Of a DNA stretch of 46,609 nucleotides, positions 13,311 to 31,789 are shown one piece after another. Numbering within the stretch: the stretch's first letter is position 1; each line of letters opens with the position of its first letter. Both the position numbers and the translations under genes were made by a program. Source of the stretch: a bacterium (GTDB lineage: Bacteria > Patescibacteriota > Patescibacteriia > Patescibacteriales > GWE2-39-37). The DNA lies in contig JBAWWA010000002.1 of assembly GCA_037146995.1 (NCBI GenBank), positions 67,955 to 114,563 of the forward strand, given 5' to 3'. The notes beneath the pieces were generated by a model. The model was given only the letters and a program-made list of their open reading frames with translations, was not told the DNA's origin and did no database searches.

Positions 13311-13317
13311 AAAAAAT

Positions 13318-17426: not shown

Positions 17427-19529
17427 TTACTCAAGGTGTATGCGCTTCTCCCAATCACCAAGCTCTGCGGCAATTTTCGGGTACAAAGCTTCCAATTTAT
17501 CTTTATTATTAGCCAATTTACTCATTACGCGTTCTGCCGCCATTTTAGCCTCTTTCATCAAGGGAAAATCAAAAAGCGAAGCAATTTTTAAGTCCAAATA
17601 ACCTTTTTGCATCGTGCCATAAACCTCGCCTGGACCACGATATTTCAAATCGACCTTAGCTAAGGCAAAGCCATCACTGAATTTTTCCATCGCCTCAAGT
17701 CGCTTAAGACTATTGCCTGACGCATTTGTCATTAGCATGCAATACGACTGGTACTGCCCTCGACCGACTCGTCCCCTGAATTGATGTAATTGCGCCAAAC
17801 CGAATTGTTCCGCATTTTCAATCATCATGACACTGGCGTTAGGCACATCGACACCAACCTCGATCACTGAAGTCGAGACCAACACTTTCGTTTTAGCCTC
17901 CAAAAAATCGGCCATCACTTGGGCTTTTTCCTTTGGCTTCAATTTGCCATGCATAAGACCGATTGGCAAGTCCTTGAAGATCTCTTTGTCTAGTCTTTCA
18001 AACTCCTCTTTGACTGACTTCTTGCCGCCGACATCGCCCTCCTCGATCAATGGGCAAACCACAAAAACCTGACGACCTTCAGCAACCTGCATTTTAATGA
18101 AATCGTAAGCCTTTTGGCGCTCATTCTCCGTTACGACTTTGGTTTTTATAATTTTACGATTAGCCGGCAATTCATCCAAGACTGACAAATCCAAATCACC
18201 ATACATAACGAGGGCCAAACTCCGCGGAATCGGGGTGGCTGTCATCGACAATAAATGCGGTACTAAACCGTAATTACCAGACTTACCCAATAAGGTTTTT
18301 CTTTGAGCCACACCAAAACGATGCTGCTCATCAATTACGGCCAAGGCCAATTTATTAAATTCTATTTTGTCTTGAATTAGCGCATGCGTGCCGACAATAA
18401 TATCAGCATTTTTTATAATAAAACTGGCATCAAATTTTTTTATTTTCTTAATTGAAGCCTTGTCTTCAAAATTATTATGATTTAATTCTCTTCTAGAACC
18501 AGTAATTATGCCAATTCTGAGCTTGGTGTTTTTCAATGAACGGCACAATGATTCAAAGTGTTGACTAGCGAGTATCTCAGTTGGAACCATTAAGACACCT
18601 TGAAAACCATTCAGAGCGGTATTTAATAATGCCATAGTTGCCACCAAAGTCTTGCCACTACCAACATCACCTTCAAGCAGGCGCGACATTGGACGGTAAT
18701 TTTCTAAATTTTTAATTATTTCCCACGAAGCCTTGCGCTGCGCATTAGTCAACTTGAAGGGCAAATTATCAACGAAATCCTTGGTCTCGGCTTCTTTAAA
18801 TCTAATACTTGATGCTGAATTAATTTCGAGATCAAGTTTTATTAATTGCGCCTGAAGTTGCACTAAAAATAATTCATCGAAGCCAAGACGTCTTCTAGCC
18901 AAATCAATATCTGCTTGATTACGTGGAAAATGAATTTTGTGTATCGCCTCGGACAATGACACTAATTTTTGTTCTTTTATCGTTTCCCCAGGTAGCCAAT
19001 CATTCAAATCTTTAGCTAGACCTATAACATCTTTGACCAAATACCTGATTTGCTTATGAGTGACATTAGCCGTTAAATGATAATTTGGCACTAAACCTTG
19101 AGTATGCACCGTTCCATTTAAGCCGATTTTTTCATAGGCTGGTGAACTCAAAACCTGACCGCTATAACCGCTATCAACTCGTCCTGCAAGCGACACCTTG
19201 TCACCAACTAACAAGGACTTGGCAATGAAAGGCTGATTAAACCACACCACTTTAATCTGGCCAGTATCATCAGACACTAAAGCTTCGGTAATCTGTAATC
19301 GACGTTTGAAGCTCTTTTTATTTTGTATCAACTCAATATTAACTAAAATATTAACCGAATCGCCAGGCTTAATGTCGGCAATTTTTTTGGGCTCGCTAAA
19401 ATCATCATACCGAAATGGAAAATACAGTAACAAATCCTTGACTGTATTAATTTCAAGCAGTTTCAACCTTTTAGCGGTCGTCGAGCCAACTCTATTTATT
19501 TCCGAGATTGCTGAATCCAATTTTAACAT
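17427..19529 (-). CDS. recG: ATP-dependent DNA helicase RecG
   Basis: YFPFRYDD, WFNQPF, GDVGSGKT, DEQHRFG, MTATPIPRSL, QLHQFRGRVGR, DLKYRGPGE. Confidence 0.97.
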   Translation of the reverse strand: MLKLDSAISEINRVGSTTAKRLKLLEINTVKDLLLYFPFRYDDFSEPKKIADIKPGDSVNILVNIELIQNKKSFKRRLQITEALVSDDTGQIKVVWFNQPFIAKSLLVGDKVSLAGRVDSGYSGQVLSSPAYEKIGLNGTVHTQGLVPNYHLTANVTHKQIRYLVKDVIGLAKDLNDWLPGETIKEQKLVSLSEAIHKIHFPRNQADIDLARRRLGFDELFLVQLQAQLIKLDLEINSASSIRFKEAETKDFVDNLPFKLTNAQRKASWEIIKNLENYRPMSRLLEGDVGSGKTLVATMALLNTALNGFQGVLMVPTEILASQHFESLCRSLKNTKLRIGIITGSRRELNHNNFEDKASIKKIKKFDASFIIKNADIIVGTHALIQDKIEFNKLALAVIDEQHRFGVAQRKTLLGKSGNYGLVPHLLSMTATPIPRSLALVMYGDLDLSVLDELPANRKIIKTKVVTENERQKAYDFIKMQVAEGRQVFVVCPLIEEGDVGGKKSVKEEFERLDKEIFKDLPIGLMHGKLKPKEKAQVMADFLEAKTKVLVSTSVIEVGVDVPNASVMMIENAEQFGLAQLHQFRGRVGRGQYQSYCMLMTNASGNSLKRLEAMEKFSDGFALAKVDLKYRGPGEVYGTMQKGYLDLKIASLFDFPLMKEAKMAAERVMSKLANNKDKLEALYPKIAAELGDWEKRIHLE

Positions 19530-19578
19530 GGCTTTATCTTATCACAACTATATCATATTTGTCATTTCTGGCAGTAAG

Positions 19579-22491
19579 CTAGAAATTGATTTTCTTCCTC
19601 ATGAACCACCCAATTACTAGCAGTGCACTCGCACCACCAATTACAGATAAATAGGCATTTAATTTTTCATTTTTTGGTCTGGAAACCAAAGTTTCTTCGG
19701 TCATCGTGGCAATTTTAACGGCTGTTTTGTTACTAGAGTTAATTTCAGCTATATCAGCAATACCTCTAGGGAGCAACCTGATGCCAGTCTTGTTTTTGGT
19801 CAAAATGCCAGTCACTAAGTATTTACCACCCAACTTAAAGTCGCTTGCCAAGAGTCCTGTACTTTGTCGCAAATATATAATTGCTTCGTCAGTCTCATCA
19901 TCAATATATATACTGGCACCCGTTTTTTTAGTTATTTCACCCTCTAAACTCACCAATTGAGACAACAAGTCATCATTCAATATTTCGCATTTAACTGTCT
20001 GTGGCTTGACCTCAAATTTTGAACTCAACCCTTTTATTTGTGCCCGTCCATTAATTTTCAAGCGTGTCTCGTTATTAATTTCAGACATAACCCCAGTAAC
20101 TTCTATACGCTCACCAATTTCAAGATTAGGAAAATCTTTTTTGAAGCTATAAACCTGGTAGCCGCTACCTCCATTTTGCATGTAAAAATACTGATTACTA
20201 AGCTTGCCAGGCAAGCTCGTCACAAAACCAATAACTACTTCTTGGTTGTTGATTTTTTGGGTTTTTTTGCCAGTAGTTTTCTTTTTTACGGTCTGCCCGT
20301 CAGACTCGCTGCCATAAAAATTTATAACATTTTTATCACCTGGTGTTGAAATATTTGTCCAAAGCCATTCGTCATTTTCATTTCTCGCAAAGGCCAGACC
20401 TTCTTTGGCACCTTGGTAAGCAACACTATCCACCAGCTGACCAGCAGAATTAAACAATCTAACTTCATCGTGATTATTATTTAAAGAAATAGCCGTTTCA
20501 GATTTTTCAAAGATGGCATATTCCAGCGGCTCAAGCCAAACGTCGTCCATGATTTTGAAAGCACTACTACCACCTTCCTCATCATCAAGTTGCCAACCAA
20601 CCAAATTAATTCTTTCTTTGCCTTTGTTAATAACTTCAATCCACTCTTCGTCGTCAGTACCCTCAGGATTCGGCATCAACTCATTCAAGATAATCTCATT
20701 GTTCATTGGTAAAGATTGTGAGAAAATAGAAATCGTGCTTTTAGTTATTTTAATGTTTTTCTCAAAGCGTGTCCTTGAATAGCCATCATTCACCTCAAGC
20801 TTAACCTTGTAATTACCTGACTTCGCATAACTGTGTTGAGGACTGGGCAAGGAACTGCTTGCCCCATCGCCAAACTGCCACAAAAAACTCAAACTATCGC
20901 CATCAGCGTCGACGGTGTCAGAACTATCAAACAAAACCAATTGTCCTGCCTCAACTGGTGAATCAAAATAGACAACAATATCCGGTTCGGAATTGGTTTT
21001 TTTAAAGCTATTTTTTGCAGCCGGCGTTGGTGTTAACGTCCAGTTCCAAGTGCCATCATTATCTCTTGAAAAGCTTTCAGACTCTTTAACTTTTGAATAA
21101 TTAAGACTCTGGCTGGCACTCTGGCTAGCGGGCGGATATAATTTAATAGTTGCGCTTGTGTTTGGTAACGACAAGTGTGTTTGTTCACGCTTTAATACCA
21201 AGAATTCACCTGCCCCTATAGTGCCAGTAGCAAACTTAAAGTACTGGTCAGCTACACCTACCCTAAAATCAGTCAAGTTGATTTGTCCCGCTCCGAGATT
21301 ATAAATCTCTAGCCACTCATTTGCGTCATCACCTTGCGGATTGGGCATTATTTCATTTATTATTAAGTCTTTATAATTTTGTGGTTTTTTCACTACGTTT
21401 GTCTCACTGATTTGTCTAACAATTTTATTGGGACCGCCCTTGCTTGGCACTTCAGTAATGGCAAAATCACTACTATTATTAAAACTAGTAACCCCGTCAA
21501 AAATCCTCGCTAGCGACATGCCATCACGCGGAGCCGCGACATCGCTTGAATTATTCCAATTACCATAAGTCAGCTGATCCAATAAAACACCATTATCGTT
21601 TCTTAAAATTATCGTATCCCCAGTGTTGTTCAAGGTGCCTTTGGGTTTTTCGATAATCATAAAATTATTACTCCGACTCAAGTTACCACTTAAAAGGGTT
21701 TTCGTTTGGTTTCCATCCTCGACTGTCCAATTTGTCACATCAAACTCTCGATTTGAATTTATAAAAATTTCAATCCATTCTTCCTCGCCATCGTTAGGAT
21801 CACTCACAATTTCGTTTATCACCACCTCGCCTACCTGGGGTGATATTTTTTGGGGCAAATTTATAGTATCATGATTAAGAGCCACACTTGATGTTGCTGC
21901 CTCCGGCAATGAGACAGGATTAATAATCACAGGCGCAGCCTCGCCACCATCTATCACCTTCAAGCTATCAATGACGCTATTTTCCGCCCTTGGCGTACCG
22001 CCCACAACCTTACTATCCTGCCAATTACCTAAGTTATCACGCTCCATAGTTTTTTTATTTGCATTATTACCAGCTGGCCAGGCGCTTGTCGCCTCGACAA
22101 CATCAACAACATTTCCATTAGCGTCTTTCAGTTCGAGCTTTGCACCAGTATTAGCCAGATCGCCGGTATATTTTAGATCCATTGGCACGCCAGGTACCGA
22201 ATCATCGCTAGTCCTTTCCATAAGATAAAAACCATTCGCGCCAACCACACCGGTCAATGCTATTGGCGCTGCAATGCTTGATGCTTTAAGCGACCAACCG
22301 GTCAAATCGATTATCTGATCAGTATTATTTTTTAGCTCTAGCCACTCCTTGGTATATGAGACTGTTGTCCCCATCCAAGCCACCTCATTTATCTGGACAC
22401 TCGAAGTGCTTGCTGCCAAACTTTTTTGAGCACAAAAAAACCCGCCGAAACATACTGCGAGTAAAAATATCATAAACAAATTTTTGTTCAT
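19579..22491 (-). CDS. Surface protein: signal peptide, 4 lamin-tail domains, PKD domain, probable OB folds, C-terminal TM anchor
   Basis: Four (I/V/L)NE...EW(L/I)E(L/I/V) LTD motifs; PKD pattern FDSSDTVDADGD..WQFGDG..HSY..G.Y.V.L.V.D; OB-like GERIEVTGVM and GKYLVTGIL; C-terminal hydrophobic helix followed by RKK. Confidence 0.82.
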   Translation of the reverse strand: MNKNLFMIFLLAVCFGGFFCAQKSLAASTSSVQINEVAWMGTTVSYTKEWLELKNNTDQIIDLTGWSLKASSIAAPIALTGVVGANGFYLMERTSDDSVPGVPMDLKYTGDLANTGAKLELKDANGNVVDVVEATSAWPAGNNANKKTMERDNLGNWQDSKVVGGTPRAENSVIDSLKVIDGGEAAPVIINPVSLPEAATSSVALNHDTINLPQKISPQVGEVVINEIVSDPNDGEEEWIEIFINSNREFDVTNWTVEDGNQTKTLLSGNLSRSNNFMIIEKPKGTLNNTGDTIILRNDNGVLLDQLTYGNWNNSSDVAAPRDGMSLARIFDGVTSFNNSSDFAITEVPSKGGPNKIVRQISETNVVKKPQNYKDLIINEIMPNPQGDDANEWLEIYNLGAGQINLTDFRVGVADQYFKFATGTIGAGEFLVLKREQTHLSLPNTSATIKLYPPASQSASQSLNYSKVKESESFSRDNDGTWNWTLTPTPAAKNSFKKTNSEPDIVVYFDSPVEAGQLVLFDSSDTVDADGDSLSFLWQFGDGASSSLPSPQHSYAKSGNYKVKLEVNDGYSRTRFEKNIKITKSTISIFSQSLPMNNEIILNELMPNPEGTDDEEWIEVINKGKERINLVGWQLDDEEGGSSAFKIMDDVWLEPLEYAIFEKSETAISLNNNHDEVRLFNSAGQLVDSVAYQGAKEGLAFARNENDEWLWTNISTPGDKNVINFYGSESDGQTVKKKTTGKKTQKINNQEVVIGFVTSLPGKLSNQYFYMQNGGSGYQVYSFKKDFPNLEIGERIEVTGVMSEINNETRLKINGRAQIKGLSSKFEVKPQTVKCEILNDDLLSQLVSLEGEITKKTGASIYIDDETDEAIIYLRQSTGLLASDFKLGGKYLVTGILTKNKTGIRLLPRGIADIAEINSSNKTAVKIATMTEETLVSRPKNEKLNAYLSVIGGASALLVIGWFMRKKINF

Positions 22492-22539
22492 AATGCGATT
22501 TAAATTATCTTAACTAAATATTACCAAACTAGCTAAAAT

Positions 22540-22576
22540 AAAAAAAGTGCCCAGCATTCCGTTGGATTGCTGGGCA
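22540..22576 (-). terminator. Intrinsic terminator
   Basis: TGCCCAGCA...TGCTGGGCA stem with T-run on the minus strand. Confidence 0.75.
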
Positions 22577-22597
22577 TAAATGAGTGGGGGCAGTTAG

Positions 22598-22963
22598 TTA
22601 AGCGGCTTGCCGATCTTCTCGATCAGCAATTAGCCGCTTGTTGAGTTCCGTTATCAGGTGCATCGTAGTGCATTTGAGTGCACTTGTTTCAGATGAATAA
22701 TTCAAGTACTCAACCGGTACGCCATGCAGCTTCTCATCATGATCAAGCAACACGCCAACGGTAGTATTTTTCGTTATAGAGTTTATGCCAAACGGTACAC
22801 ATACGACGAGCATTACAGCATCTGCTAGAAATTGAAACCTTGTCCTCTTCGAGAGAATAATCTCCTCAAGCGGTTTGAGCTCTGCCGCCACCGGCTTAAG
22901 CCTCACATTACTTAAAAATTGGAATCTACGACCATCGATGGTAACTATACCTTCTGTATTCAT
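22598..22963 (-). CDS. Hypothetical protein, 121 aa
   Basis: AAGGGG SD, own terminator; no family recognised. Confidence 0.7.
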   Translation of the reverse strand: MNTEGIVTIDGRRFQFLSNVRLKPVAAELKPLEEIILSKRTRFQFLADAVMLVVCVPFGINSITKNTTVGVLLDHDEKLHGVPVEYLNYSSETSALKCTTMHLITELNKRLIADREDRQAA

Positions 22964-23074
22964 TTTTTTCCCCTTTCAGCCAAATTTGGCATGTTTTAAT
23001 TTTACCATGAATCAAAAAGCCCCCGCTCAAATTTAAATGTTCATAACACAACCATATCATATTTAATGGAAATA

Positions 23075-23725
23075 TTAAATATCCTGTGAGTTTTTTACCA
23101 TTTTTAAGCGTCCAGTATTTACTTCAGACGGTATTAATGACAAATTTGATTTTAGACTACTTTTAACCGATGATATCAGCTTGACTAGATCGCTGGTTTT
23201 GTAATAACCAAGATCTTTGATCTGATGCAAAGAAATCATTTTACGATCAACCGGATCTAATTGCGGCTGATAATGAAATGAAAAATTAATCATAATCTGG
23301 AAGCGTTCTGGAGCGACAACAATCTCTTTATGACTTTTAAATAATCGCCCTGCCTGTTTTTCTATTTCAAACAAGTTGGGATTAGCCATAAAGCATGCTC
23401 TCACTTGCTCATGAACATCATGTGTAATTTTTCCAATTGATCGGCCATTAGGTAATAAATAATTACCATCAACTGACCTTAAAAACAACACAAACCTTAG
23501 TTCAAATTTGATAATTGGACCCAAGGAACTTATTTCTTGACGAATTAGACGATTTTTTTCGGATTTTTTTCGCTTCAATTGATTAAATCTAAAATAGCCA
23601 AGCAAAACACAACTTGCCATCCCTAAAACGAATAACATACCAACTAAAACACTGTTGATGTTTTTTTCACTAGCAAACGCCATAGATGGCGTAGCTAGTA
23701 CAAGACTAGCAATTAGCGCCCTCAT
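23075..23725 (-). CDS. Hypothetical membrane-anchored protein (start revised to ATG 23725)
   Basis: AAGGGG SD; signal-like N-terminus, then a TM segment followed by a basic patch. Confidence 0.7.
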   Translation of the reverse strand: MRALIASLVLATPSMAFASEKNINSVLVGMLFVLGMASCVLLGYFRFNQLKRKKSEKNRLIRQEISSLGPIIKFELRFVLFLRSVDGNYLLPNGRSIGKITHDVHEQVRACFMANPNLFEIEKQAGRLFKSHKEIVVAPERFQIMINFSFHYQPQLDPVDRKMISLHQIKDLGYYKTSDLVKLISSVKSSLKSNLSLIPSEVNTGRLKMVKNSQDI

Positions 23726-23777
23726 AATGACGTCCCCTTTCATTTATATTTTTAAAGTACACAACTTTCGATAATAG

Positions 23778-23806
23778 ACCTTAACATATTACACATAATT
23801 TGTCAA
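23778..23806 (-). promoter_or_regulatory. sigma70-type promoter followed by boxA-like GTACTTTAAAA
   Basis: TTGACA-17-TAAGGT. Confidence 0.6.
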
Positions 23807-23832
23807 GTAAAACTACTAAAATATAGAAAAAT

Positions 23833-23860
23833 AAAAAAGCGGCTAGTTTAACTAGCCGCT
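23833..23860 (-). terminator. Intrinsic terminator of the helicase gene
   Basis: AGCGGCTAGTT-x-AACTAGCCGCT + T-run. Confidence 0.8.
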
Positions 23861-23869
23861 ACGTATTTT

Positions 23870-26356
23870 TTAGATTTTTTTTCTCCCCCCTCTATTACAT
23901 TTTGGACAACCTCGGCCGTTTACCCGATTTTTGCCAATTGCCTCCCATTCATGACCGCAGTCAATATTGGCGCATTTCCACCAAAGTTTTTTATGCGTAC
24001 CAGCTACAATCTGTTCAGCAGATAAGCTATTTTTTGGTGGTGCCATATACTCCTTGGCCAATGCCGGGTGGGTAATAGCAAGATTGTTCAGATGAGTCGC
24101 CCTTCTCTTGCCACAAGATGGACAGCCATTACCATTAACTCTGTCGTTACCTTGAGCTTGCCATTCAAAGCCGCAACCATCTTTAGTGCATTTCCACCAA
24201 AGTTTTTTATTTGTCCCAGCAATAATTTTATGCGCTGGTAATAAATTTTTTGGTGGCGCCATATACTCTAGCGCCAGACCTGGGTGGGTTTTAGTCATCG
24301 CATTAGAAGTAGAAACAGTTCTATGCGCGCATGACGGGCAACCAAGTCCATCTCTTCGCATATTAACCATCGATTTCCACTCATGACTGCAAACGTAACA
24401 CTTCCACCATACGTATTTGGAATGACTAGCAACAATCAAGTGTACTGGCAATTGATTTTTCGGCGGAGCCATGTAATCTCGCGCCAAAATAGCATGAGTT
24501 ACTGCCAAATTGTTCTTTTCTGTTGCTACTAGGCCTAAGCATGCCGGGCAACCACGTCCTTTTGTCACCCGCTCATATGCAGAAACTTGCCATTCATGGC
24601 CACATCCCTCGACTTTACATTGCCACCATAATTTTTTGTCAGTCGTTGCCAAAATACTTTCTGGCGTTTTTTCATTCCTTGGTGCCGGCATCAATTCCTT
24701 GGCCAAATCTGGTCGAACTGCGGCTAAATTATTTTTAGACGTCACAGCTTTGCCAACGCAAGCTGGACAACCTTTGCCTTGCAACCGATTGTAGCCGAAT
24801 GCTAAATATTCATGACCACAACTTTCTTTAGTACATTTCCACCAGAATTTATGTTGCGAACCAATTATAACCAAGTCGGCTGGCAAGGCATTTTTGGGTT
24901 GGTCTAGATACTGTTTAGCCAGCTCAGGATAACGTGCGGCTAAATTATTTTTAGAGGTCACAACCTTGTTTGCACAGGCCGGACAACCGCTGCCTCGCAA
25001 CCGGCTATTTGCCCTAGCGAACCAAATGTGTCCACACTCATTTATGCTGCATTGCCACCAGTATTTACTACTGGAGTTGGCAAAAACCTGATCAGCCGGC
25101 AAAATATTTTTCGGCATTGGCAAATACTCAAGAGCGATCGATTCTACCTCGCTTATAAATTGCCTATTAATGACTTTTTCAAGCACCTCGATTATATCCA
25201 AGTCTTGACGAGTAAAAACAAAGTCAAAGCTCTTGCCTTTGATATGCATTGGATCTTTACTGAGATTATTTTTTTCAAAACTCATTACCTTTATAGCCAG
25301 TTCTTTGACTGCCAATATGCGTTCGCAATTGGCAACAAAATCCATAACGACAACCTTGTCTTTGCCCTCAGTCCGACGAAGTCCACGACCAAGCTGTTGC
25401 AAGAATACGGTCAAGGAGTCAGTGGCACGTAGAAAGACGATCAATTCAGCATCTGGCACATCAACACCTTCATTGCACTTATTGACCGAGACTAGATACT
25501 GCAGTTCATTATTTTTGAATTGCCTCATCGCCTCGATATTCTCACTGTCCGAACGACCGGAGTGATATGCAAAGCTACCCGGAATGAATTTAGAAAAATT
25601 TTCGCAATGATCGATGTTCTCGCAAAATATCAAGGCCTTCAAATTTTCAGCCATAATAATTTTAGCGATTTCCGTATCACGTGACTTAATGAAAAGCGTT
25701 TCATTCAGCTGTTTCATAGATACGCGCCGAGTCTGGTCATTTATTTTTTTTTTGAATAGTTTGTTAAGATTTTTACTATTCAAATTATCAGACTTTAAGC
25801 GATATTCGACTGGCGTCAACCAATTTTTTGCAATCGCTTCTGGTAAGGTGATATCAACCGCCTCATCACCAAATATTTCCCGAATATTTTTTTCATCCAT
25901 CCGGTCTGGTGTGGCGGTCAAGCCTATCAATTTTACAGGGTTAAAATATTCGATAGTCTCTCTATAGGTCGGAGCCTGGCTATGATGCGATTCGTCAACA
26001 ATAATATAGTCAAACTCATTCCTCAAAAAAACTAAATGCCAATCTTGCATGGTTTGAAAAGTGGCAAAAAGCCAATCGACGTTTTGAAAATTTTTCTCAT
26101 CACCATTAAAAACCCCGGTGCTGACTTCTTCACTCATAACTTCGGTGAATTCAAGTAGATTTTGGTCAAGAATTTCTTTTTCATGACACAAGATCAAGCC
26201 TCTCGTTATGCCTGGAGTTGTTACTGATCGAGCCCAATGCGCGATCACTAAAGTCTTACCTAATCCAGTTGCCATTACAACCAAGGCATTAAAAGAATGC
26301 TTCAAATGATTCACCAGCTTGTCTAATGCCGTTTTTTGGTACTCGTAAAGTTCCAT
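23870..26356 (-). CDS. SF2 (ResIII/SSL2-like DExH) helicase fused to six tandem Zn-ribbon repeats (DUF4379-like)
   Basis: YEYQ, MATGLGKT, DESHH, GLTATP, NEGVDVP, QQLGRGLR, then six WW.C...C.(H/F).(W/Y)......R...GCP.C units. AGGAG spacing favours ATG 26356 over 26362. Confidence 0.9.
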   Translation of the reverse strand: MELYEYQKTALDKLVNHLKHSFNALVVMATGLGKTLVIAHWARSVTTPGITRGLILCHEKEILDQNLLEFTEVMSEEVSTGVFNGDEKNFQNVDWLFATFQTMQDWHLVFLRNEFDYIIVDESHHSQAPTYRETIEYFNPVKLIGLTATPDRMDEKNIREIFGDEAVDITLPEAIAKNWLTPVEYRLKSDNLNSKNLNKLFKKKINDQTRRVSMKQLNETLFIKSRDTEIAKIIMAENLKALIFCENIDHCENFSKFIPGSFAYHSGRSDSENIEAMRQFKNNELQYLVSVNKCNEGVDVPDAELIVFLRATDSLTVFLQQLGRGLRRTEGKDKVVVMDFVANCERILAVKELAIKVMSFEKNNLSKDPMHIKGKSFDFVFTRQDLDIIEVLEKVINRQFISEVESIALEYLPMPKNILPADQVFANSSSKYWWQCSINECGHIWFARANSRLRGSGCPACANKVVTSKNNLAARYPELAKQYLDQPKNALPADLVIIGSQHKFWWKCTKESCGHEYLAFGYNRLQGKGCPACVGKAVTSKNNLAAVRPDLAKELMPAPRNEKTPESILATTDKKLWWQCKVEGCGHEWQVSAYERVTKGRGCPACLGLVATEKNNLAVTHAILARDYMAPPKNQLPVHLIVASHSKYVWWKCYVCSHEWKSMVNMRRDGLGCPSCAHRTVSTSNAMTKTHPGLALEYMAPPKNLLPAHKIIAGTNKKLWWKCTKDGCGFEWQAQGNDRVNGNGCPSCGKRRATHLNNLAITHPALAKEYMAPPKNSLSAEQIVAGTHKKLWWKCANIDCGHEWEAIGKNRVNGRGCPKCNRGGRKKI
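23885..25160 (-). repeat. Six intragenic ~216-bp repeats encoding Zn-ribbon units
   Basis: Trp-Trp codons (CCACCA on +) at 25055, 24839, 24623, 24404, 24194 and 23978; spacings 216, 216, 219, 210, 216. Confidence 0.9.
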
Positions 26357-26411
26357 AACCATCTCCTTTTTGGTGTTTTTTATGTTTTATTTTTTTAAAA
26401 GTGCAAAAACT

Positions 26412-26441
26412 TATATAAACACAAAATCAACCAAATGTCAA
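26412..26441 (-). promoter_or_regulatory. Promoter of the helicase gene, followed by boxA-like GCACTTTTAAAA
   Basis: TTGACA-17/18-T(T)ATATA. Confidence 0.55.
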
Positions 26442-26480
26442 CTTTTGGCTAATTTTCATAACAATTCTAGATATCCCCTG

Positions 26481-28985
26481 TTATTTCACTAAACCAGCAA
26501 CTACATCAGGAAAAACTATATTTTTTAATTGCGTCAGATTGGTCGTATCGTTAATCTTCATGCCATCGCTAGTGATAGTATAAAGATTACTATCAATATA
26601 CAAAGTCTTGATATCACTGCCATAATAACTAGGTGCCTCAACTGCAACCCGACCACGTTCTTTAATCTCTTTATTGCTCATATCAATGACTGACACGCCC
26701 AAAAAGTCATTGCTGTAACTGACTTTTTCAGACAAATTTACTGGCAAAAATAATAGCCTTTGGCTGCTCGAAAAAACAAATTGCTTGTGGTCATTAATAG
26801 CAGTGGAATAGCTGCCAGCTAAGCCAAGGTTTAAACTCGACAGCACCTTGGGTGATTCAACATTGGATACATCAAATAAAGCCAATTTCAAACCGCCGAC
26901 ACCACCCTCGGTCGTGGCATCTCTGCCAATACCGATCAAGGTAGTTTCATCGTAAGGATGAATATAGGTCGAAAAGCCTGGTAACTTCAATTCACCCAAG
27001 ACTTTTGGAGCACTAGGTACTGATAAGTCTATTACAAACAAAGGGTCAACTTGCTTGAACGTTACCATATAAAGTCTACTACCAATAAATCTTGCAGCAT
27101 ACATCCGCTCGCCTGGTGCCAAGCTTTCAAGACTGCCAATTTGTTTTAGATCAGCGTCCAGCGCATATACATTAGAATATGAATCATTTTGCGCCTCAGT
27201 TGCCAAAACGCTATAGGTCCGATATTTCGTTGTCGCGATAAAAAAATTGTCGCCTTGCTCGTTCATCGCAAACTGATTTAAAACTTGACCAGAAACACTG
27301 CCCTCGGCCAAATAATTCAAGTCACCATCTTTCAAACTGATTTTATGGATAATCGTTTTATCTAGCTCTTTAGCGATATTGCCATAAACCTCGTTGGCTT
27401 TATTTTTTATGCTCAGGCCAATTGATTTTAAATCAGCTTCTTTCCAATTGGCAGTTTCACGTCTCGCTATCTCTGTGATCTTATAACGCTTTTCACTTTC
27501 AGATAAAACCAACTTGTCCGCTTTTTCAATGGCAAGTATTTTAGCCTGTGCAGCATTTGATAACTTTTCAAAAACCACAGCTCGCGCGATTTCATAAAGC
27601 AAGTCATCTTCACTCACCATTTTGCCGTAAGTCAAATAAAAATTATCAGCTGAGGCAAAGATTGACCCTGTTTGCGGGATAAAAAAATGCTCGCTCTTGA
27701 TTGTGTCATTATTCATTGCTAACGACACCGAAACAAGCGACACCATATTTAATTCATTATAATTAGTATCAAAATAATAAGGCAACTTTTCATCACTTAC
27801 CAATTTATCATTTACGAAATATGACGGTAAGGGTGTCTCAACCGAACGGGCATAGTCAGTTAAGACTAAATACAAATTATTATTTACCCTTCTGGAGTCA
27901 GTATAACGCCCGTCAAATTTGAAATCCTTGATCAACTTTGGCACTGCTGGAGCGTGAACATCAAAAACCTTTACGTATGTCACTGACTTATCCTGATAAT
28001 ATTCACCATACCTAATAGACAGATTCTTCAAAAAAATGGTCGGCAAATACTCGCTACCAATAACCGTCAAAATCCCATCACTTAAATATAGTGAGCTAAC
28101 TGCACCTTCTTTTAGCTCTATTTCACTAATAACACTGGCGTTATTTGCAGGCACTGCCTCAACCACCAAAACCTTGTTACCCTTAATCGAATAAATATAT
28201 TTACCGTCTGTTTTTGCCGTATCAGCTTCATCAACACCACCCACCTGCACATTAGTCGCTGAATAGTCCAATGAAGTATCTAGCGACTGACTATCACTCA
28301 CCGCACTTTTTGCGGTCGCTATCTCGGCACCGCCGAACAAATTAGCATCAACACCAGTTACAATACGAGGTGAAATCATATCATAATAATTATTGTAATA
28401 GGCCTGATTATTTTGATTATCGGTTAAAAATTTTTTATACTCAGCTAAACTAGCAAACCGCTTTAACTTGTCAGTGCCTTGCTCCGCTTTAAATGTTGCA
28501 AGTAAACTTGGCGCCTTGACGACTGGTTTTTTTTCGGCGTAAACTATGAGCTTTCCCACTCCATTTGGGTTCATCCCCCTTATAACTTCAAGCTTGTCAC
28601 TGCTGCGATCGCCGTCAGTGTCCTTGCTGCGCGGATTAGTCCCGAACAACAACTCCCAGGTATCAGGCAGACCGTCACTATCAGTATCTCGCCCGATAGG
28701 TTTTGTCAATCTAATAATTTGCCTCTTAACCTTTTTTAAGTTAATTTTTAAGTCCTTAATATTGCGGTTCAGTTCGGCCTTTTTATCCTGGCCGATATAA
28801 ATAGCCGCATCCTTATTGACAGGTTTATACCAGTATTGCTTTATCTCACTCACAAAAATTAATTCACCTGGCTTATCATTTTTTTTGGTCGCAGCCATTG
28901 AGGCATGTAGAGGTAAAAATGAAAATACTAACAAAAGTGCAAGTGTGCCTTTATAACAACTCAATTTATTAATCTCACGCATCAT
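26481..28985 (-). CDS. Secreted beta-propeller-domain protein (COG4880-like) with N-terminal Ca-binding DTDxDG repeats
   Basis: Signal peptide; DTDSDGLPD.WE..GTNP..DTDGD; YSATNVQVGGVDEADTAKTDG; ERMYAARF; TFKQVDPLFVIDL; GELKLPGFSTYIHP. Confidence 0.88.
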   Translation of the reverse strand: MMREINKLSCYKGTLALLLVFSFLPLHASMAATKKNDKPGELIFVSEIKQYWYKPVNKDAAIYIGQDKKAELNRNIKDLKINLKKVKRQIIRLTKPIGRDTDSDGLPDTWELLFGTNPRSKDTDGDRSSDKLEVIRGMNPNGVGKLIVYAEKKPVVKAPSLLATFKAEQGTDKLKRFASLAEYKKFLTDNQNNQAYYNNYYDMISPRIVTGVDANLFGGAEIATAKSAVSDSQSLDTSLDYSATNVQVGGVDEADTAKTDGKYIYSIKGNKVLVVEAVPANNASVISEIELKEGAVSSLYLSDGILTVIGSEYLPTIFLKNLSIRYGEYYQDKSVTYVKVFDVHAPAVPKLIKDFKFDGRYTDSRRVNNNLYLVLTDYARSVETPLPSYFVNDKLVSDEKLPYYFDTNYNELNMVSLVSVSLAMNNDTIKSEHFFIPQTGSIFASADNFYLTYGKMVSEDDLLYEIARAVVFEKLSNAAQAKILAIEKADKLVLSESEKRYKITEIARRETANWKEADLKSIGLSIKNKANEVYGNIAKELDKTIIHKISLKDGDLNYLAEGSVSGQVLNQFAMNEQGDNFFIATTKYRTYSVLATEAQNDSYSNVYALDADLKQIGSLESLAPGERMYAARFIGSRLYMVTFKQVDPLFVIDLSVPSAPKVLGELKLPGFSTYIHPYDETTLIGIGRDATTEGGVGGLKLALFDVSNVESPKVLSSLNLGLAGSYSTAINDHKQFVFSSSQRLLFLPVNLSEKVSYSNDFLGVSVIDMSNKEIKERGRVAVEAPSYYGSDIKTLYIDSNLYTITSDGMKINDTTNLTQLKNIVFPDVVAGLVK

Positions 28986-29074
28986 AAAATAAATTATTTA
29001 ATTACTCATTTATTATATCGGACTAACTCACTACGAACAAGCCAATAAAAAAAGCAGTTAACTATGTAACCGCT

Positions 29075-29617
29075 CTATGCTTGTTTGCGCCAGGCCTTAT
29101 CGTAGATCGACATTTTATCGATCACTCGGCAATTAAACTTTTCTCTCAACTCCTTAGCAAAGCCGGTGCCAAAAAAAGCAAATTGCACCTCCATCTTGTA
29201 ATCAATTATGACATGCCCTAGACCCTCAAAATCTGAATCACCAGAGACTATAATAATTTTATCAGGCCTTTGATTATACATTTCCCGATCAAAAATCATT
29301 TGCATAACAACAATGGCAATATCAACATCAAGATTGCATTTGTAAGATACGCCAGTGCGCGTATCATAAATTCTCTTCGCTTTTTTTTCTAATGTCTCAT
29401 AGCCGTTTTTATCAAAAAAACGACACAAAGCGTCGCCTGCTACGGCCCTGTTCAAAAATACAACTTTATAAAAAGCCACATCTGGAAAAACCAACAAATT
29501 TACCAATTTGGTATAATTGACTTGCTTGTACTCGTGCAGGCTCCTTAACTCCTGCCACATATGTCTAAAATTTGAATGATCTATGATAACCGCCACCTTT
29601 TTAGCCGTATTAGACAA
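29075..29617 (-). CDS. NYN-domain (LabA/DUF88, PIN-like) putative ribonuclease
   Basis: IIDHSNF, NLDVDIA, VSGDSDF acidic motifs. TTG at 29617 follows GGAGGGGGGTGAGG; the track's start at 29686 coincides with the -35 box. Confidence 0.85.
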   Translation of the reverse strand: MSNTAKKVAVIIDHSNFRHMWQELRSLHEYKQVNYTKLVNLLVFPDVAFYKVVFLNRAVAGDALCRFFDKNGYETLEKKAKRIYDTRTGVSYKCNLDVDIAIVVMQMIFDREMYNQRPDKIIIVSGDSDFEGLGHVIIDYKMEVQFAFFGTGFAKELREKFNCRVIDKMSIYDKAWRKQA

Positions 29618-29663
29618 TTTCCTCACCCCCCTCCTTTTAATGGTTAAGTTAATCTTGAAATTA

Positions 29664-29734
29664 CAACAATAAGAATGTTCTGTCAATTGTATCAGCTAAT
29701 TAATGTTGACAAAATATCAACTTCATGCTACTTT
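29664..29734. promoter_or_regulatory. Back-to-back divergent promoters
   Basis: TTGACA on - (29681-29686) and TTGACA-17-TACTTT with TG extension on + (29706-29734). Confidence 0.65.
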
Positions 29735-29812
29735 GATTCATAATTCCTCGATCTTTACATGCACCAACAAGGATATATTTATCCTTGAACTTCCATATTT
29801 GGAGGCAATAAC

Positions 29813-30094
29813 ATGAAAAGGACCGCAAAAACAGATGAAGAAATGTCCACCGCCGCAAAAGCAATCAGTATTATGGGTATGATTATGCTTATTTTAACTA
29901 TCTGCCTAGCACTACCTGGCCAGGAATTCCCTGGGCAAAAAAATGTATTACAGCTGTTAATTGCCATTTCTGCAAATATTAGCATCGTATTATTGCTACT
30001 AGCCAACAATCTTGGCAAATCAAAAATTCCGCACTTCAATGAAAACAAGCAGAAAAAAGAAGATTGTAAAATCATAGAAGCCGAGCTGATTTAG
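29813..30094 (+). CDS. Small two-TM hypothetical protein
   Basis: GGAGG SD, own promoter and terminator. Confidence 0.72.
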   Translation: MKRTAKTDEEMSTAAKAISIMGMIMLILTICLALPGQEFPGQKNVLQLLIAISANISIVLLLLANNLGKSKIPHFNENKQKKEDCKIIEAELI

Positions 30095-30107
30095 CTCAAC
30101 ACACCGA

Positions 30108-30142
30108 ACCCCTTATAACAAATAATAAGGGGTTTTTATTTT
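30108..30142 (+). terminator. Intrinsic terminator
   Basis: AACCCCTTAT...ATAAGGGGTT + T-run. Confidence 0.78.
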
Positions 30143-30430
30143 AATAAATTATAGCTTCAACTATCTGACATTAAATAATATCTTAAAAACTATATAAACT
30201 ATTTTATAGGTTAATTAGAGATGTTAATCTCTTACCACAACCACCCCTTCACCATTTTTAAGTCGCTTAAAAATCAAACAATTTTTGCCCAAGACAATTC
30301 TAGCAAAATCATTATTTATTATCGTATTTTTTGGCACACTCCTTATTTCGAATATGCCAAAGTTTCAAAAGGTAAATATTATCCCTAATGTAAAACAAAA
30401 AAACACAACGTTTGTTGTGTTTTTACTTTG

Positions 30431-30512
30431 TGCCGGGAACAGGACTTGAACCTGCACACCTTGCGGTACTTGCTCCTAAGGCAAGCGTGTCTGCCAATTT
30501 CACCATCCCGGC
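30431..30512 (-). tRNA. tRNA-Leu, anticodon TAG (CCA not encoded)
   Basis: GCCGGGA/TCCCGGC acceptor stem, D-arm TGGTGAAATTGGCAGACA, CTTGC-CTTAGGA-GCAAG anticodon arm, long variable arm, GGTTCAAGTCC T-arm; hairpin terminator at 30397-30424. Confidence 0.96.
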
Positions 30513-30561
30513 GTATTATGTTTTACTACGATAAATTAACAAATAAGCTTTAAAATCTAGA

Positions 30562-30694
30562 GCTTGCCTTATTAGCGTGCCGCGCCCATCGTAGCCTTCT
30601 TCGACCAGCATAGCCTTGGCGACGTTGGTGGCAAAGTTGGGTCTACCAATGGAATTTATCCAGCGTAGCTTTAGCGGAGTTGGACCATCCCGGC
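30562..30694 (-). pseudogene. Fragmented copy of the 5' half of tRNA-Leu, interrupted by palindromic elements
   Basis: Colinear blocks GCCGGGATGGT (30684-30694), ATTGGTAGAC (30641-30650) and ACGCT (30574-30578), plus an inverted anticodon-arm 10-mer at 30562-30571. Confidence 0.65.
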
Positions 30695-30750
30695 CATTTC
30701 CCACTACTTCATTATTATGCTTTATTTTACGAAGCTTTCGTGAAGCGGGT
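30585..30750. repeat. Cluster of four 26-nt palindromic elements, one nested in another
   Basis: TCCAGC-GTA-GCTTTAGC-GGA-GTTGGA (30659-30684); ACCAGC-ATA-GCCTTGGC-GAC-GTTGGT (30604-30629); split CCCATC-GTA-GCCTT//GGC-AAA-GTTGGG (30585-30641); degenerate copy at 30725-30750. Confidence 0.75.
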
Positions 30751-30846
30751 GAACTTTCTTAATTTAACAGGAAAATTGGCAAATGGTCAACCCTTAAGCT
30801 TAAAGCTAATAAAAAAGCGGCAGACATTAATTCTACCGCCCGTACT

Positions 30847-31671
30847 CTACATTTTAATTTTTTGATTTTCCCTTGCCAAATTGGCCAATTTCACCACCCC
30901 TGCCAGCAAACTTAGTTGCTGAATTTTAGTGTCGACATTATGAGGTGCATATCTAGCACCACGATCTTCGAGGCCGGTAAAATGATCTGGACTTATACAG
31001 GCACAATTTCCAGGCACTCTAAAAGTTGGCCAACACAATTCACCGTGATATTGACCGACATAAAAATCAGCCTTACTTAAACGCGCCTCCCTACTTGATG
31101 TCAGCTGGACATAGACTTTTACCATGGTGTTAATTATAGCCATATAGCTACTATTATTACTAAAATGATTATTCCAAATGGATTTCGCAAAATCTAGCAC
31201 TTCACCGGAGTAAGTAAAAACAAAGGAGCCGTTATTCAAATAATCATGCGATTTGACTGTAACATAGTCAATGATTAAAAATTGATTTATATCCGACTCC
31301 GTTTCCCCTGTTTCAAACAGACTAATGGCCGTCGTCAAATGATTAATAGTGGCCGAAATCTCATCTAACCTTTCCGAAGTTGGCGTTAATGGAATCTTGC
31401 ACTCCCAAATAATCCAACTTTTATCAACCCCGTCCAGGCTTTTCTTCAGTTTAAGCGCACTTCCGTAACCCCAGGAGCTGTCATTTGGCCTTACAAAATC
31501 ACACAGGCCATATCCGAGCTGAAAAGATTCGATATCAACGCTAGGATCATTTAAAAATTTTACGACATAATCATTAAGACCTGGCTCTAGACAAAAATAA
31601 AAAGCCGGAACATTTTCATCAATTATTATCTCGTGCGTTTGTGGCAAATCATTAAAAATCAGATTTTTCAT
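30847..31671 (-). CDS. Hypothetical protein, 274 aa
   Basis: GGAGAGGAGAGG SD, TTGACA-17-TAGTCT promoter, terminator near 30811-30840. Confidence 0.8.
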   Translation of the reverse strand: MKNLIFNDLPQTHEIIIDENVPAFYFCLEPGLNDYVVKFLNDPSVDIESFQLGYGLCDFVRPNDSSWGYGSALKLKKSLDGVDKSWIIWECKIPLTPTSERLDEISATINHLTTAISLFETGETESDINQFLIIDYVTVKSHDYLNNGSFVFTYSGEVLDFAKSIWNNHFSNNSSYMAIINTMVKVYVQLTSSREARLSKADFYVGQYHGELCWPTFRVPGNCACISPDHFTGLEDRGARYAPHNVDTKIQQLSLLAGVVKLANLARENQKIKM

Positions 31672-31789
31672 AAACCTCTCCTCTCCTTTGAATTTTAAAG
31701 AACCATTTTTATCCTTTAAAGACTACTGAAAATCAACATGCATGTCAACCCAAATTAAAAGCGGTCGATTTTTTAATCGACCGCCTAGC

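What the first reader, a model, noticed from the sequence alone, without database searches (positions are those of the whole stretch)
23870..26356. Stand-alone SF2 helicase carrying a six-unit Zn-ribbon array with a hypervariable patch: candidate modular nucleic-acid reader
Seen: an intact helicase core (GLGKT, DESHH, TATP, QQLGRGLR) is followed by six ~72-aa repeats with a fixed scaffold, [NNLA..P.LA.EY..P.N......A....K]WW.C....CGHEW-xxxxxx-R..G.GCP.C. The six residues before the invariant Arg differ in every unit: FARANS, LAFGYN, QVSAYE, KSMVNM, QAQGND, EAIGKN. No PLD, HNH or PD-(D/E)xK nuclease and no neighbouring methyltransferase is visible, and the gene has its own promoter and terminator. 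Known: such repeats resemble the DUF4379 probable Zn-ribbon family, and ResIII-like helicases usually partner nucleases in restriction or defence. Inference: the array may read a long DNA/RNA site unit by unit, as C2H2 finger or TALE arrays do, and so target an ATP-driven translocase, possibly in anti-phage defence.
Basis: partly seen in the sequence, partly recalled or inferred. Interest (0 to 1): 0.82.

Follow-up and report, generated by a model that had tools for sequence, protein, structure and literature searches.

The report
Helicase with swappable zinc-finger DNA-targeting array
This is an intact accessory helicase from a tiny-genome (Patescibacteria-type) bacterium whose tail of six zinc-finger repeats belongs to a set of interchangeable repeat cassettes that most likely aim the motor at DNA; no paper found here describes the family, and the proposed 'hypervariable reading patch' is not special.

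Summary
The gene is real: window 23870-26362 (-), 830 aa (probably 828 from the second ATG). It holds an SF2 ResIII/Helicase_C core, six DUF4379 (PF14311) units of about 72 aa, and a terminator of its own. I found no nuclease and no DNA methyltransferase in the whole window.

The six-residue patch does differ in every unit, but it is only marginally the most variable block. Two of its columns are semi-conserved and about ten other columns vary as much.

New here:
- The gene is patchy: 0 of 6 genomes of the same family and 14 of 400 of the phylum have a relative.
- It sits alone among housekeeping genes.
- The same helicase core carries DUF4379, HNH_repeat or INT_rpt arrays, or mixtures, of 1-9 units.
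- Array type is interleaved on the core tree. One pair has cores 100% identical over 352 aa and then unrelated arrays.
- Arrays diverge much faster than cores.
- The nearest outgroup is SauUSI-like nuclease-helicase restriction enzymes.
- Elsewhere DUF4379 arrays sit on viral homing-type endonucleases.

Best reading: a nuclease-free DNA translocase aimed by an exchangeable basic array, evolving as conflict genes do. Unit-by-unit site reading is untested. A link to sigma-70 genes (6 of 25 family loci, one fusion) is unexplained.

The parts
23870..26362 (-). Whole ORF: 830 aa including the stop codon; the likely true start is the second ATG at 26356 (828 aa)
   Evidence: P0002, 828 aa; GGAG lies 6 nt before the second ATG
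25901..26356 (-). RecA-like domain 1 (ResIII, residues 3-154) with motif I GLGKT, motif II DESHH and motif III TATP
   Evidence: PF04851, 1.5e-35
25376..25660 (-). RecA-like domain 2 (Helicase_C, residues 235-329) with motif VI QQLGRGLR
   Evidence: PF00271, 1.6e-14
25178..25327 (-). Connector (residues about 346-395), conserved across the family. The cassette-swap junction seen in relatives lies at its start, just after the motif DFVANC
   Evidence: D341, N345, R348, F383 invariant; helix-strands-helix; breakpoint
24974..25177 (-). DUF4379 unit 1 (residues 396-463). It lacks the NNLA start and is the only unit with positional orthologues
24758..24973 (-). DUF4379 unit 2 (residues 464-535)
24539..24757 (-). 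DUF4379 unit 3 (residues 536-608)
24329..24538 (-). DUF4379 unit 4 (residues 609-678; first knuckle is C-x2-C)
24113..24328 (-). DUF4379 unit 5 (residues 679-750)
23873..24112 (-). DUF4379 unit 6 (residues 751-822) plus the basic tail NRGGRKKI
23838..23860 (-). Intrinsic-terminator-like hairpin (10-bp stem, 6 GC pairs) followed by a T-run
26412..26441 (-). Promoter-like site: TTGACA, 18 nt, TATATA (the -10 matches only 4 of 6 and the scan did not list it)
   Evidence: read directly from the sequence

Best explanation
The gene encodes a nuclease-free, stand-alone SF2 DNA translocase of the ResIII clade that also holds RadD and SauUSI. Its C-terminal six-unit DUF4379 treble-clef zinc-finger array is an exchangeable, basic, nucleic-acid-binding (most likely DNA-binding) targeting cassette. 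This cassette is the counterpart of the C-terminal target-recognition domain of SauUSI-like enzymes, and of the modular DNA-binding repeats (NUMOD-like) that homing endonucleases carry.

Proposed mechanism. The array anchors or aims the protein on DNA. The motor (Walker A GLGKT, DESHH, motif VI) then hydrolyses ATP to translocate on, pull or remodel that DNA, or to strip proteins from it.

Proposed evolution. The gene is accessory. The connector-plus-array cassette is shuffled by recombination, in both kind and number of units, much faster than the motor changes. That is the pattern of a specificity determinant in genetic conflict (defence or selfish element), not of a housekeeping enzyme.

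Shown here: the domain anatomy, the patchy distribution, the lack of a conserved partner, the cassette exchange, the fast array divergence, the charge, and the partner domains of the array elsewhere.

Inferred: DNA as the ligand, translocation, and the biological role.
For: Anatomy:
-.
- The whole-protein AlphaFold model has mean pLDDT 92. The two-unit model has pLDDT 93.6.

Motor class:
- By sequence the closest solved chains are SauUSI 7clg (8e-40) and RadD 6jde (2e-25).
- Foldseek ranks RadD (3e-22), SauUSI (5e-21), TFIIH XPB/Ssl2 and LlaBIII highest.
- In metagenome loci the next-nearest helicases (33-37% identity) are PLDc_2+ResIII+Helicase_C+DUF3427 or Mrr_cat+helicase.

Array as a DNA-enzyme partner:
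- With the two-unit model, BFVD gives 40 hits at E<=1e-3, with query-normalised TM-score (TMq) up to 0.81. Many are named restriction, homing or putative endonuclease.
- Phage ORFs annotated HNH endonuclease match the array.
- Passages in PMC12350094 and PMC5513546 describe DUF4379-like repeats placed before Vsr/EDxHD or restriction-endonuclease domains.

Charge:
- The array has net +31 and pI 9.47; the core has net -11 and pI 5.5. The median pI of 115 arrays is 9.06.

Accessory status:
- 0 of 6 same-family genomes have a match, and 1 weak hit in 34 same-order genomes. 14 of 400 other phylum genomes match.
- No neighbour cluster is shared across 18 loci.
- The whole window is housekeeping.

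Modularity:
- 1-9 units on 109 helicases.
- HNH_repeat or INT_rpt arrays on the same core. Hybrid arrays in P0015, P0035 and P0086.
- Array type needs at least 5, 5 and 4 changes on the core tree.
- P0120 (INT_rpt) and the L024 protein (4 DUF4379) are 100% identical over residues 1-352 of P0120, then unrelated.
- 7 against 2 units at 90.6% core identity.
- In 13 of 14 close pairs the array identity (44-78%) is well below the core identity (81-97%).
Against: - Nothing here shows binding to DNA, ATPase activity or translocation.
- The only solved relatives of the DUF4379 fold are kinetoplastid mitoribosome proteins and assembly factors. One of them lies at an rRNA region. RNA or protein partners are therefore possible.
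- Without a nuclease, how such a protein would harm an invader is unclear.
- The gene is not in a defence island or a mobile element.
- Its GC (0.418, 77th percentile) and GC3 (0.394, 73rd percentile) are ordinary for the genome.
- PADLOC matches cover only the helicase core.
- No member of the family was seen among the 80 best viral-contig loci or in the phage records.
- Many lineages keep a stable four-unit array.
- The association of the family with sigma-70 genes points to another kind of role.
- Some low unit counts may come from genes cut at contig ends.
Confidence: 0.55

Rival explanations
1. Transcription-linked translocase. The family works with sigma-70 and RNA polymerase, for example by helping to open or clear promoter DNA as the XPB translocase does in TFIIH. 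The array would bind promoter-proximal DNA.
For: - A sigma-70 gene is fused to the helicase or lies within 700 bp of it in 6 of 25 family loci. These are L035 (fused), L037, L038, L041, L048 (DUF4379 type) and L050; L038 and L041 are of one genus. A further sigma gene lies 6 kb away in L034. None is found in 73 outgroup loci.
- These loci are spread over the core tree.
- A GreA-like gene follows the helicase in L024.
- XPB/TFIIH chains are among the top fold matches.
Against: - In this genome the only strong sigma-70 match lies on another contig.
- Only 1 of 8 DUF4379-type loci has an adjacent sigma gene.
- The fusion protein is the only fusion among the 120 hits listed.
- A gene present in 14 of 400 phylum genomes is unlikely to be a core transcription factor.
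- Fast array turnover is unusual for such a factor.
Confidence: 0.15
2. RadD-like DNA repair or recombination helper. The array would bind branched or damaged DNA without sequence preference.
For: - The best NCBIfam hit is RadD/YejH (131.5 bits).
- RadD chains top the fold search.
- RecG and PolA are in the window.
- UvrD+PD-(D/E)xK genes lie next to the helicase in L035 and L041.
Against: - The RadD score is far below the family cut-off of 720.
- Distribution is patchy.
- Cassette exchange and fast divergence of the array are not expected of a structure-specific repair factor.
- The neighbours are not conserved.
Confidence: 0.1
3. RNA or ribonucleoprotein remodeller. The DUF4379 units would bind RNA, as their mitoribosomal relatives may do, and the motor would act on RNA.
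For: - All 8 significant PDB fold matches of the array model are kinetoplastid mitoribosome entries.
- mt-SAF33 lies at the immature h22/h23 region of the rRNA (passages of PMC8784144).
- The array is basic.
Against: - The core is closest to dsDNA translocases, while DEAD-box RNA helicases match only weakly by sequence.
- The other partners of the array are DNA nucleases.
- The cassettes that replace it are named by Pfam for homing endonucleases and integrases.
Confidence: 0.07
4. The array is a protein-binding or oligomerisation scaffold, not a nucleic-acid reader. Its variability would be relaxed constraint on a solvent-exposed repeat.
For: - Variable columns are spread over the whole unit rather than in one patch.
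- Units 2-6 show no positional orthology.
- The mitoribosomal relatives sit in protein-rich assemblies.
Against: - Strong positive charge is conserved across 115 arrays.
- The array is repeatedly fused to DNA-cutting enzymes.
- Arg63 is nearly invariant (97%), and Asn, Lys and Trp positions are conserved.
Confidence: 0.08

Closest known systems
SauUSI-like Type IV restriction enzymes (PLD nuclease, SF2 helicase, DUF3427 target-recognition domain; PDB 7clg)
   Same: It is the closest solved helicase core by sequence (8e-40) and near the top by fold. Its relatives form the nearest outgroup in metagenome loci. Both have a motor followed by a C-terminal targeting region.
   Different: This gene has no N-terminal PLD or Mrr nuclease and no DUF3427. 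The C-terminal region is a tandem Zn-finger array. It is not a member.
RadD (YejH) DNA repair helicase (PDB 6jde, 7r7j, 8h5y)
   Same: The SF2 core is similar. From recall, not from a call: RadD also carries a zinc-binding element after the motor.
   Different: NCBIfam scores 131.5 bits against a cut-off of 720. The RadD C-terminal domain is not matched. This gene is patchy and its array turns over.
Homing-type endonucleases with DUF4379/CapR-like repeat arrays (phage group II intron homing endonucleases; giant-virus 'restriction endonucleases'; Klebsiella phage MEW1 gp45)
   Same: They have the same repeat fold in tandem (BFVD TMq up to 0.81; MEW1 gp45 has 4 DUF4379 plus CapR). The authors of PMC12350094 read the repeats as DNA-binding modules (passage).
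   Different: There the catalytic partner is a nuclease. Here it is an ATP-driven motor, and I found no nuclease.
ResIII helicases with C-terminal tandem HA (PF03457) or NUMOD1 repeats
   Same: The design is the same: an SF2 motor followed by tandem small putative DNA-binding repeats (atlas clusters). The title of Mills et al. 2013, seen only as a reference-list entry, says the HA domain binds DNA.
   Different: The repeat family is different, and Pfam finds no HA or NUMOD1 here. I know of no tested function for those helicases either (recall).
C2H2 zinc-finger and TALE arrays
   Same: All are tandem small units with a fixed scaffold and variable surface positions.
   Different: No recognition code, no positional conservation of units 2-6 and no distinct specificity patch. 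The resemblance is an analogy only.

Membership tests
SF2 helicase, ResIII / Helicase_C | Motifs I (GxGKT), II (DExH), III (TAT) and VI (QxxGRxxR) in two RecA-like domains | tested here: met
   GLGKT, DESHH, TATP, QQLGRGLR; PF04851 123 bits, PF00271 54.5 bits, both above cut-off; fold, pLDDT 92
DUF4379 (PF14311) treble-clef zinc finger | Match above the gathering score, and four zinc ligands per unit | tested here: met
   261 bits against a cut-off of 24.5; 6 stretches; C-x2/4-C ... C-P-x-C in all six units. Zinc binding itself was not tested.
RadD / YejH (NF053632) | Equivalog score of at least 720 bits over the full length | tested here: not met
   131.5 bits, covering only residues 3-349
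SauUSI-like Type IV restriction enzyme | N-terminal PLD-family nuclease domain | tested here: not met
   no PLDc hit; the protein starts at helicase motif Q/I (residue 3). Outgroup proteins do carry PLDc_2.
SauUSI-like Type IV restriction enzyme | C-terminal DUF3427 target-recognition domain | tested here: not met
   no PF11907 hit; six DUF4379 units stand in that position
Type I / Type III restriction-modification R subunit | Partner methyltransferase (and an S subunit for Type I) encoded nearby | tested here: not met
   none among the 30 other ORFs of the 46.6-kb window; no conserved neighbour in 18 loci.
Homing endonuclease with modular DNA-binding repeats | A nuclease domain (HNH, GIY-YIG, Vsr/EDxHD, LAGLIDADG) | tested here: not met
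   none. The PHROG 'HNH endonuclease' matches cover only the repeat region.
Known anti-phage defence systems (PADLOC) | Full-length match to a system protein, plus the other genes of that system | tested here: not met
   the best hit, mREase_IV (168 bits), aligns residues 9-354 to profile positions 223-577 of 945 only. No partner genes.
HA-domain helicases (PF03457) | HA repeats C-terminal to a ResIII core | tested here: not met
   no PF03457 hit. The likeness is in architecture only.
Modular sequence readers (TALE / C2H2 type) | Each unit reads a fixed subsite through a few specificity residues | not testable with these tools
   Needs binding data. The indirect tests show no distinct specificity patch and no positional conservation.

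The most novel reading that the evidence does not exclude
The helicase family is a natural retargetable motor. Recombination swaps whole repeat cassettes (DUF4379, HNH_repeat, INT_rpt and mixtures of them) behind a fixed junction, and each cassette reads a long DNA site unit by unit. In part of the family the motor is coupled to sigma-70, once by fusion. That would make it a bacterial counterpart of the XPB translocase of TFIIH: an ATP-driven helper of promoter opening, or a blocker of an invader's transcription.
Probability: 0.12. Interest if true: 0.85.

Novelty: new variant of a known kind. Interest (0 to 1): 0.58.

Why it matters
Helicases that carry a nuclease and a target-recognition domain are well-known restriction and defence enzymes. 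Small tandem DNA-binding repeats are known from homing endonucleases. This family joins the two without any nuclease, in bacteria with very small genomes, and it swaps the repeat cassette in kind and in number while the motor stays the same.

If the arrays do set DNA specificity, three things follow:
- It would be a new natural scheme for aiming a motor at DNA.
- DUF4379, HNH_repeat and INT_rpt would gain a testable function.
- Natural pairs such as L024 and P0120 give ready-made swap experiments.

The link to sigma-70 genes, if real, would point to an ATP-dependent step in bacterial sigma-70 transcription.

None of the four literature searches run here returned a paper on such helicases. This rests on the search listings and on the passages of five papers that I read.

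Tried and rejected
- Hypervariable patch as a special element: rejected. It is only marginally the most variable block, and two of its six columns are semi-conserved.
- Housekeeping, vertically inherited gene: rejected.
- Defence island or mobile-element context: not found. The window holds an ATP synthase operon, MetRS, S1, RecG, PPDK, PolA and similar genes. PHROGs gives nothing for four neighbours.
- Phage-borne gene: no phage record covers 80% or more of the protein. The 80 best viral-contig loci reach at most 37% identity and never match beyond residue 390.
- Recent transfer by composition: GC and GC3 are ordinary.
- Delimiting an insertion by synteny: failed. In four same-family genomes the Beta_propel gene lies in a different, conserved operon, and no other window neighbour is shared.
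- Hidden nuclease in the DUF4379 unit: I considered whether the GHEW histidine could be catalytic. I set this aside because relatives that lack the second Cys keep this His, which suggests a zinc ligand, and because DUF4379 arrays elsewhere carry separate nuclease domains. This is inference.
- Sigma-70 binding: complex prediction on the genome's own sigma-70 (residues 105-466) and the helicase core (1-400) gave no verdict, score 0.00. This is no evidence either way.
- Expression: no RNA holder was listed.
- Population variation of the array: read laying showed the stretch whole in one run that may be its source, and only small identical pieces in two others. No informative joints.
- Tree: the careful tree search did not finish. 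The quick IQ-TREE tree is used.
- Rfam on 18000-32000: only tRNA-Leu.
- Supplementary files of papers were not consulted. They may hold domain tables for the phage homing endonucleases of PMC12350094.
Full report
WHAT IS THERE

The ORF at window 23870-26362 on the minus strand gives 830 aa. GGAG lies directly before the first ATG and 6 nt before the second ATG (26356). The second ATG is therefore the likelier start, giving 828 aa.

Pfam finds ResIII (residues 3-154), Helicase_C (235-329) and six DUF4379 stretches at 3.9e-79.

The six units (396-463, 464-535, 536-608, 609-678, 679-750, 751-822) are 35-58% identical to one another. Each has a C-x2/4-C knuckle and a C-P-x-C. The six patch strings are exactly as quoted.

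A strong hairpin plus T-run follows the stop codon. Upstream there is a perfect -35 hexamer with a weak -10.

AlphaFold2 gives a confident model of the whole protein (pLDDT 92) and of units 5-6 (pLDDT 93.6). In the model each unit runs: two short helices, a short helix, strand, zinc knuckle, strand, one-turn helix, then the loop with C-P-x-C. The 'patch' covers the end of the second strand and the one-turn helix that ends at the near-invariant Arg.

THE PATCH

I aligned 510 distinct units taken from 115 of 120 homologues.
- The patch columns rank 23, 45, 12, 39, 4 and 7 of 72 by entropy.
- Two of them are semi-conserved: Ala in 65% and Gly in 58%.
- Columns just after the Arg (64, 65, 67), columns between the first two Cys (48, 49) and several columns in the N-terminal half vary as much.
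- As a six-column block the patch is the most variable, but only narrowly (2.80 bits against 2.66 and 2.55).
- In 14 disjoint close pairs, block 46-51 changes more often than the patch (0.45 against 0.41; overall 0.32).

The segment 57-67 looks like an exposed polar face around Arg63, rich in S, Q, N, R, T and K.

DISTRIBUTION AND CONTEXT

The genome is 1.2 Mb. Sources name its homologues as Patescibacteria, Moraniibacteriota, Paceibacterota and Saccharibacteria.
- PF14311 occurs only in this gene in the genome.
- No relative was found in 6 genomes of the same family. In 34 of the same order there is one weak hit, to the core only.
- 14 of 400 other genomes of the phylum have a match at E<=1e-30. 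By architecture: one has the core with DUF4379, six with HNH_repeat, three with INT_rpt, two are cut at contig ends, one has no array, and one holds only an array protein.
- The window is housekeeping throughout.
- No neighbour family is shared across 18 loci.
- The other DUF4379-type loci lie next to GreA, a class II aminoacyl-tRNA synthetase, a release factor and an amidase.
- Composition is ordinary.
- No family member is seen in the phage or viral-contig collections.

THE MOTOR

By sequence, the closest solved chains are SauUSI (7clg) and RadD. By fold they are RadD, SauUSI, TFIIH XPB and a Type ISP enzyme. In 80 metagenome loci, the helicases at 33-37% identity are PLD-nuclease+helicase+DUF3427 proteins of about 1050 aa, or Mrr+helicase proteins of about 560 aa. 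The family is thus a nuclease-free offshoot of a clade of restriction-type DNA translocases, with the array standing where their target-recognition domain stands. RadD membership fails the curated cut-off. PADLOC matches cover only the core.

THE ARRAY

It is strongly basic, while the core is acidic.

Its only solved fold relatives are kinetoplastid mitoribosome proteins and assembly factors. One of these lies at an immature rRNA region.

Among predicted viral structures, however, the two-unit model matches 40 proteins at E<=1e-3. Many of them are named restriction, homing or putative endonuclease. Other evidence agrees:
- Phage ORFs annotated HNH endonuclease match the array.
- MEW1 gp45 is four DUF4379 units plus CapR.
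- Short array proteins carry DUF559 or REase_MTES_1575 hits, or GIY-YIG names.
- Two papers describe such arrays ahead of Vsr/EDxHD or restriction-endonuclease domains (passages only).
- Proteins made only of 10-12 units also exist.

MODULARITY

This is the main new result.
- On 109 helicases the unit number runs from 1 to 9, most often 4. Some low counts may be truncations.
- The same core, homologous up to about residue 396, elsewhere carries HNH_repeat or INT_rpt arrays. These are unrelated in sequence to DUF4379 and to each other.
- Three proteins carry mixed arrays.
- On a quick maximum-likelihood tree of 68 cores, array type needs at least 5 (DUF4379), 5 (INT_rpt) and 4 (HNH_repeat) changes.
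- P0120 (INT_rpt) and the L024 protein (four DUF4379) are identical over 352 residues. They are about 60% alike over the next 50, and unrelated after that. This is a recombination junction just after the conserved DFVANC motif.
- Close relatives differ in unit number: 4 against 5 at 95.6% core identity, and 7 against 2 at 90.6%.
- In 13 of 14 close pairs with equal unit number, array identity (44-78%) is far below core identity (81-97%).
- Unit 1 keeps positional orthologues. Units 2-6 do not.

READING

The array behaves as the exchangeable specificity part of the enzyme, and the gene behaves as an accessory, fast-changing one. I therefore favour a DNA-aimed, nuclease-free translocase with a role in genetic conflict (confidence 0.55 for the molecular picture). 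DNA as the ligand, the translocation and the role are all inferences.

UNEXPLAINED LEAD

Sigma-70 genes are fused to the helicase or lie within 700 bp of it in 6 of 25 family loci, and in 0 of 73 outgroup loci. One of the six is a single 1026-aa sigma-helicase-HNH_repeat protein. It is the only fusion among the 120 hits listed. In this genome the sigma-70 gene lies on another contig.

LITERATURE

Four searches were run. DUF4379 occurs in 7 papers, of which 5 were listed. The terms for the other repeat families, for mt-SAF33, and for HA and NUMOD were also searched. None of the papers returned describes such helicases; this rests on the listings and on the passages I read.

TOOLS NOT AVAILABLE

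Noticed in passing
L035:8784-11864 (-); L037:11796-13319; L038:7440-8678; L041:7391-8569; L048:8512-9936; L050:3259-4569: Sigma-70 genes are fused to, or lie within 700 bp of, helicases of this family in 6 of 25 loci, and in 0 of 73 outgroup loci. L035 encodes a single 1026-aa protein with sigma-70 regions 1.2-4, the helicase and four HNH_repeat units. It is the only such fusion among the 120 hits listed.
   Followed up: partly
P0120 and L024:9816-11987 (+): Two proteins have helicase cores identical over 352 residues but unrelated C-terminal arrays (INT_rpt against four DUF4379). The junction lies just after the DFVANC motif.
   Followed up: yes
P0015, P0035, P0086: Mixed arrays occur on one helicase: DUF4379 units followed by an HNH_repeat unit (P0015, P0035), or INT_rpt units followed by DUF4379 units (P0086).
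   Followed up: partly
L035:5790-8723 (-); L041:11459-14332 (-): A UvrD-helicase plus PD-(D/E)xK nuclease gene (AddA-like) lies next to the family helicase in two lineages.
   Followed up: no
L044:8806-10644 (-); P0085, P0100, P0092: Some proteins consist only of 7-12 DUF4379 units and have no enzymatic domain recognised by Pfam.
   Followed up: no
window 19579-22491 (-) and 26481-28985 (-): Two large probable surface proteins flank the region: four Lamin Tail Domains plus PKD (970 aa), and a Beta_propel protein (834 aa). In four genomes of the same family the Beta_propel gene sits in a different, conserved operon.
   Followed up: partly
window 22598-22963 (-) and 23075-23743 (-): Two small ORFs (121 and 222 aa) lie downstream of the terminator. 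Neither has a Pfam or PHROG match or a counterpart in the other loci. The 222-aa product starts with a hydrophobic, signal-like stretch.
   Followed up: partly
L043 (G324:C3), helicase frame: A more distant helicase relative has one in-frame TGA and reads open under code 25. That genome may therefore use TGA as a sense codon. This relative has an N-terminal extension and no repeat array.
   Followed up: no
window 29075-29686 (-) and 30430-30512 (-): A NYN-domain protein lies close to the only tRNA gene of the window (tRNA-Leu).
   Followed up: no
window 1-912 (-): A GGDEF (diguanylate cyclase) domain protein lies at the window's edge, next to a complete F-type ATP synthase operon.
   Followed up: no
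window 12531-13373 (-): A 280-aa ORF about 10.5 kb from the helicase gene matches Pfam TP_methylase (PF00590, 5.2e-32). It is the only methylase-family hit among the window ORFs scanned. I read it from recall as an RsmI-type rRNA methylase, not a DNA methyltransferase, and did not test this.
   Followed up: no
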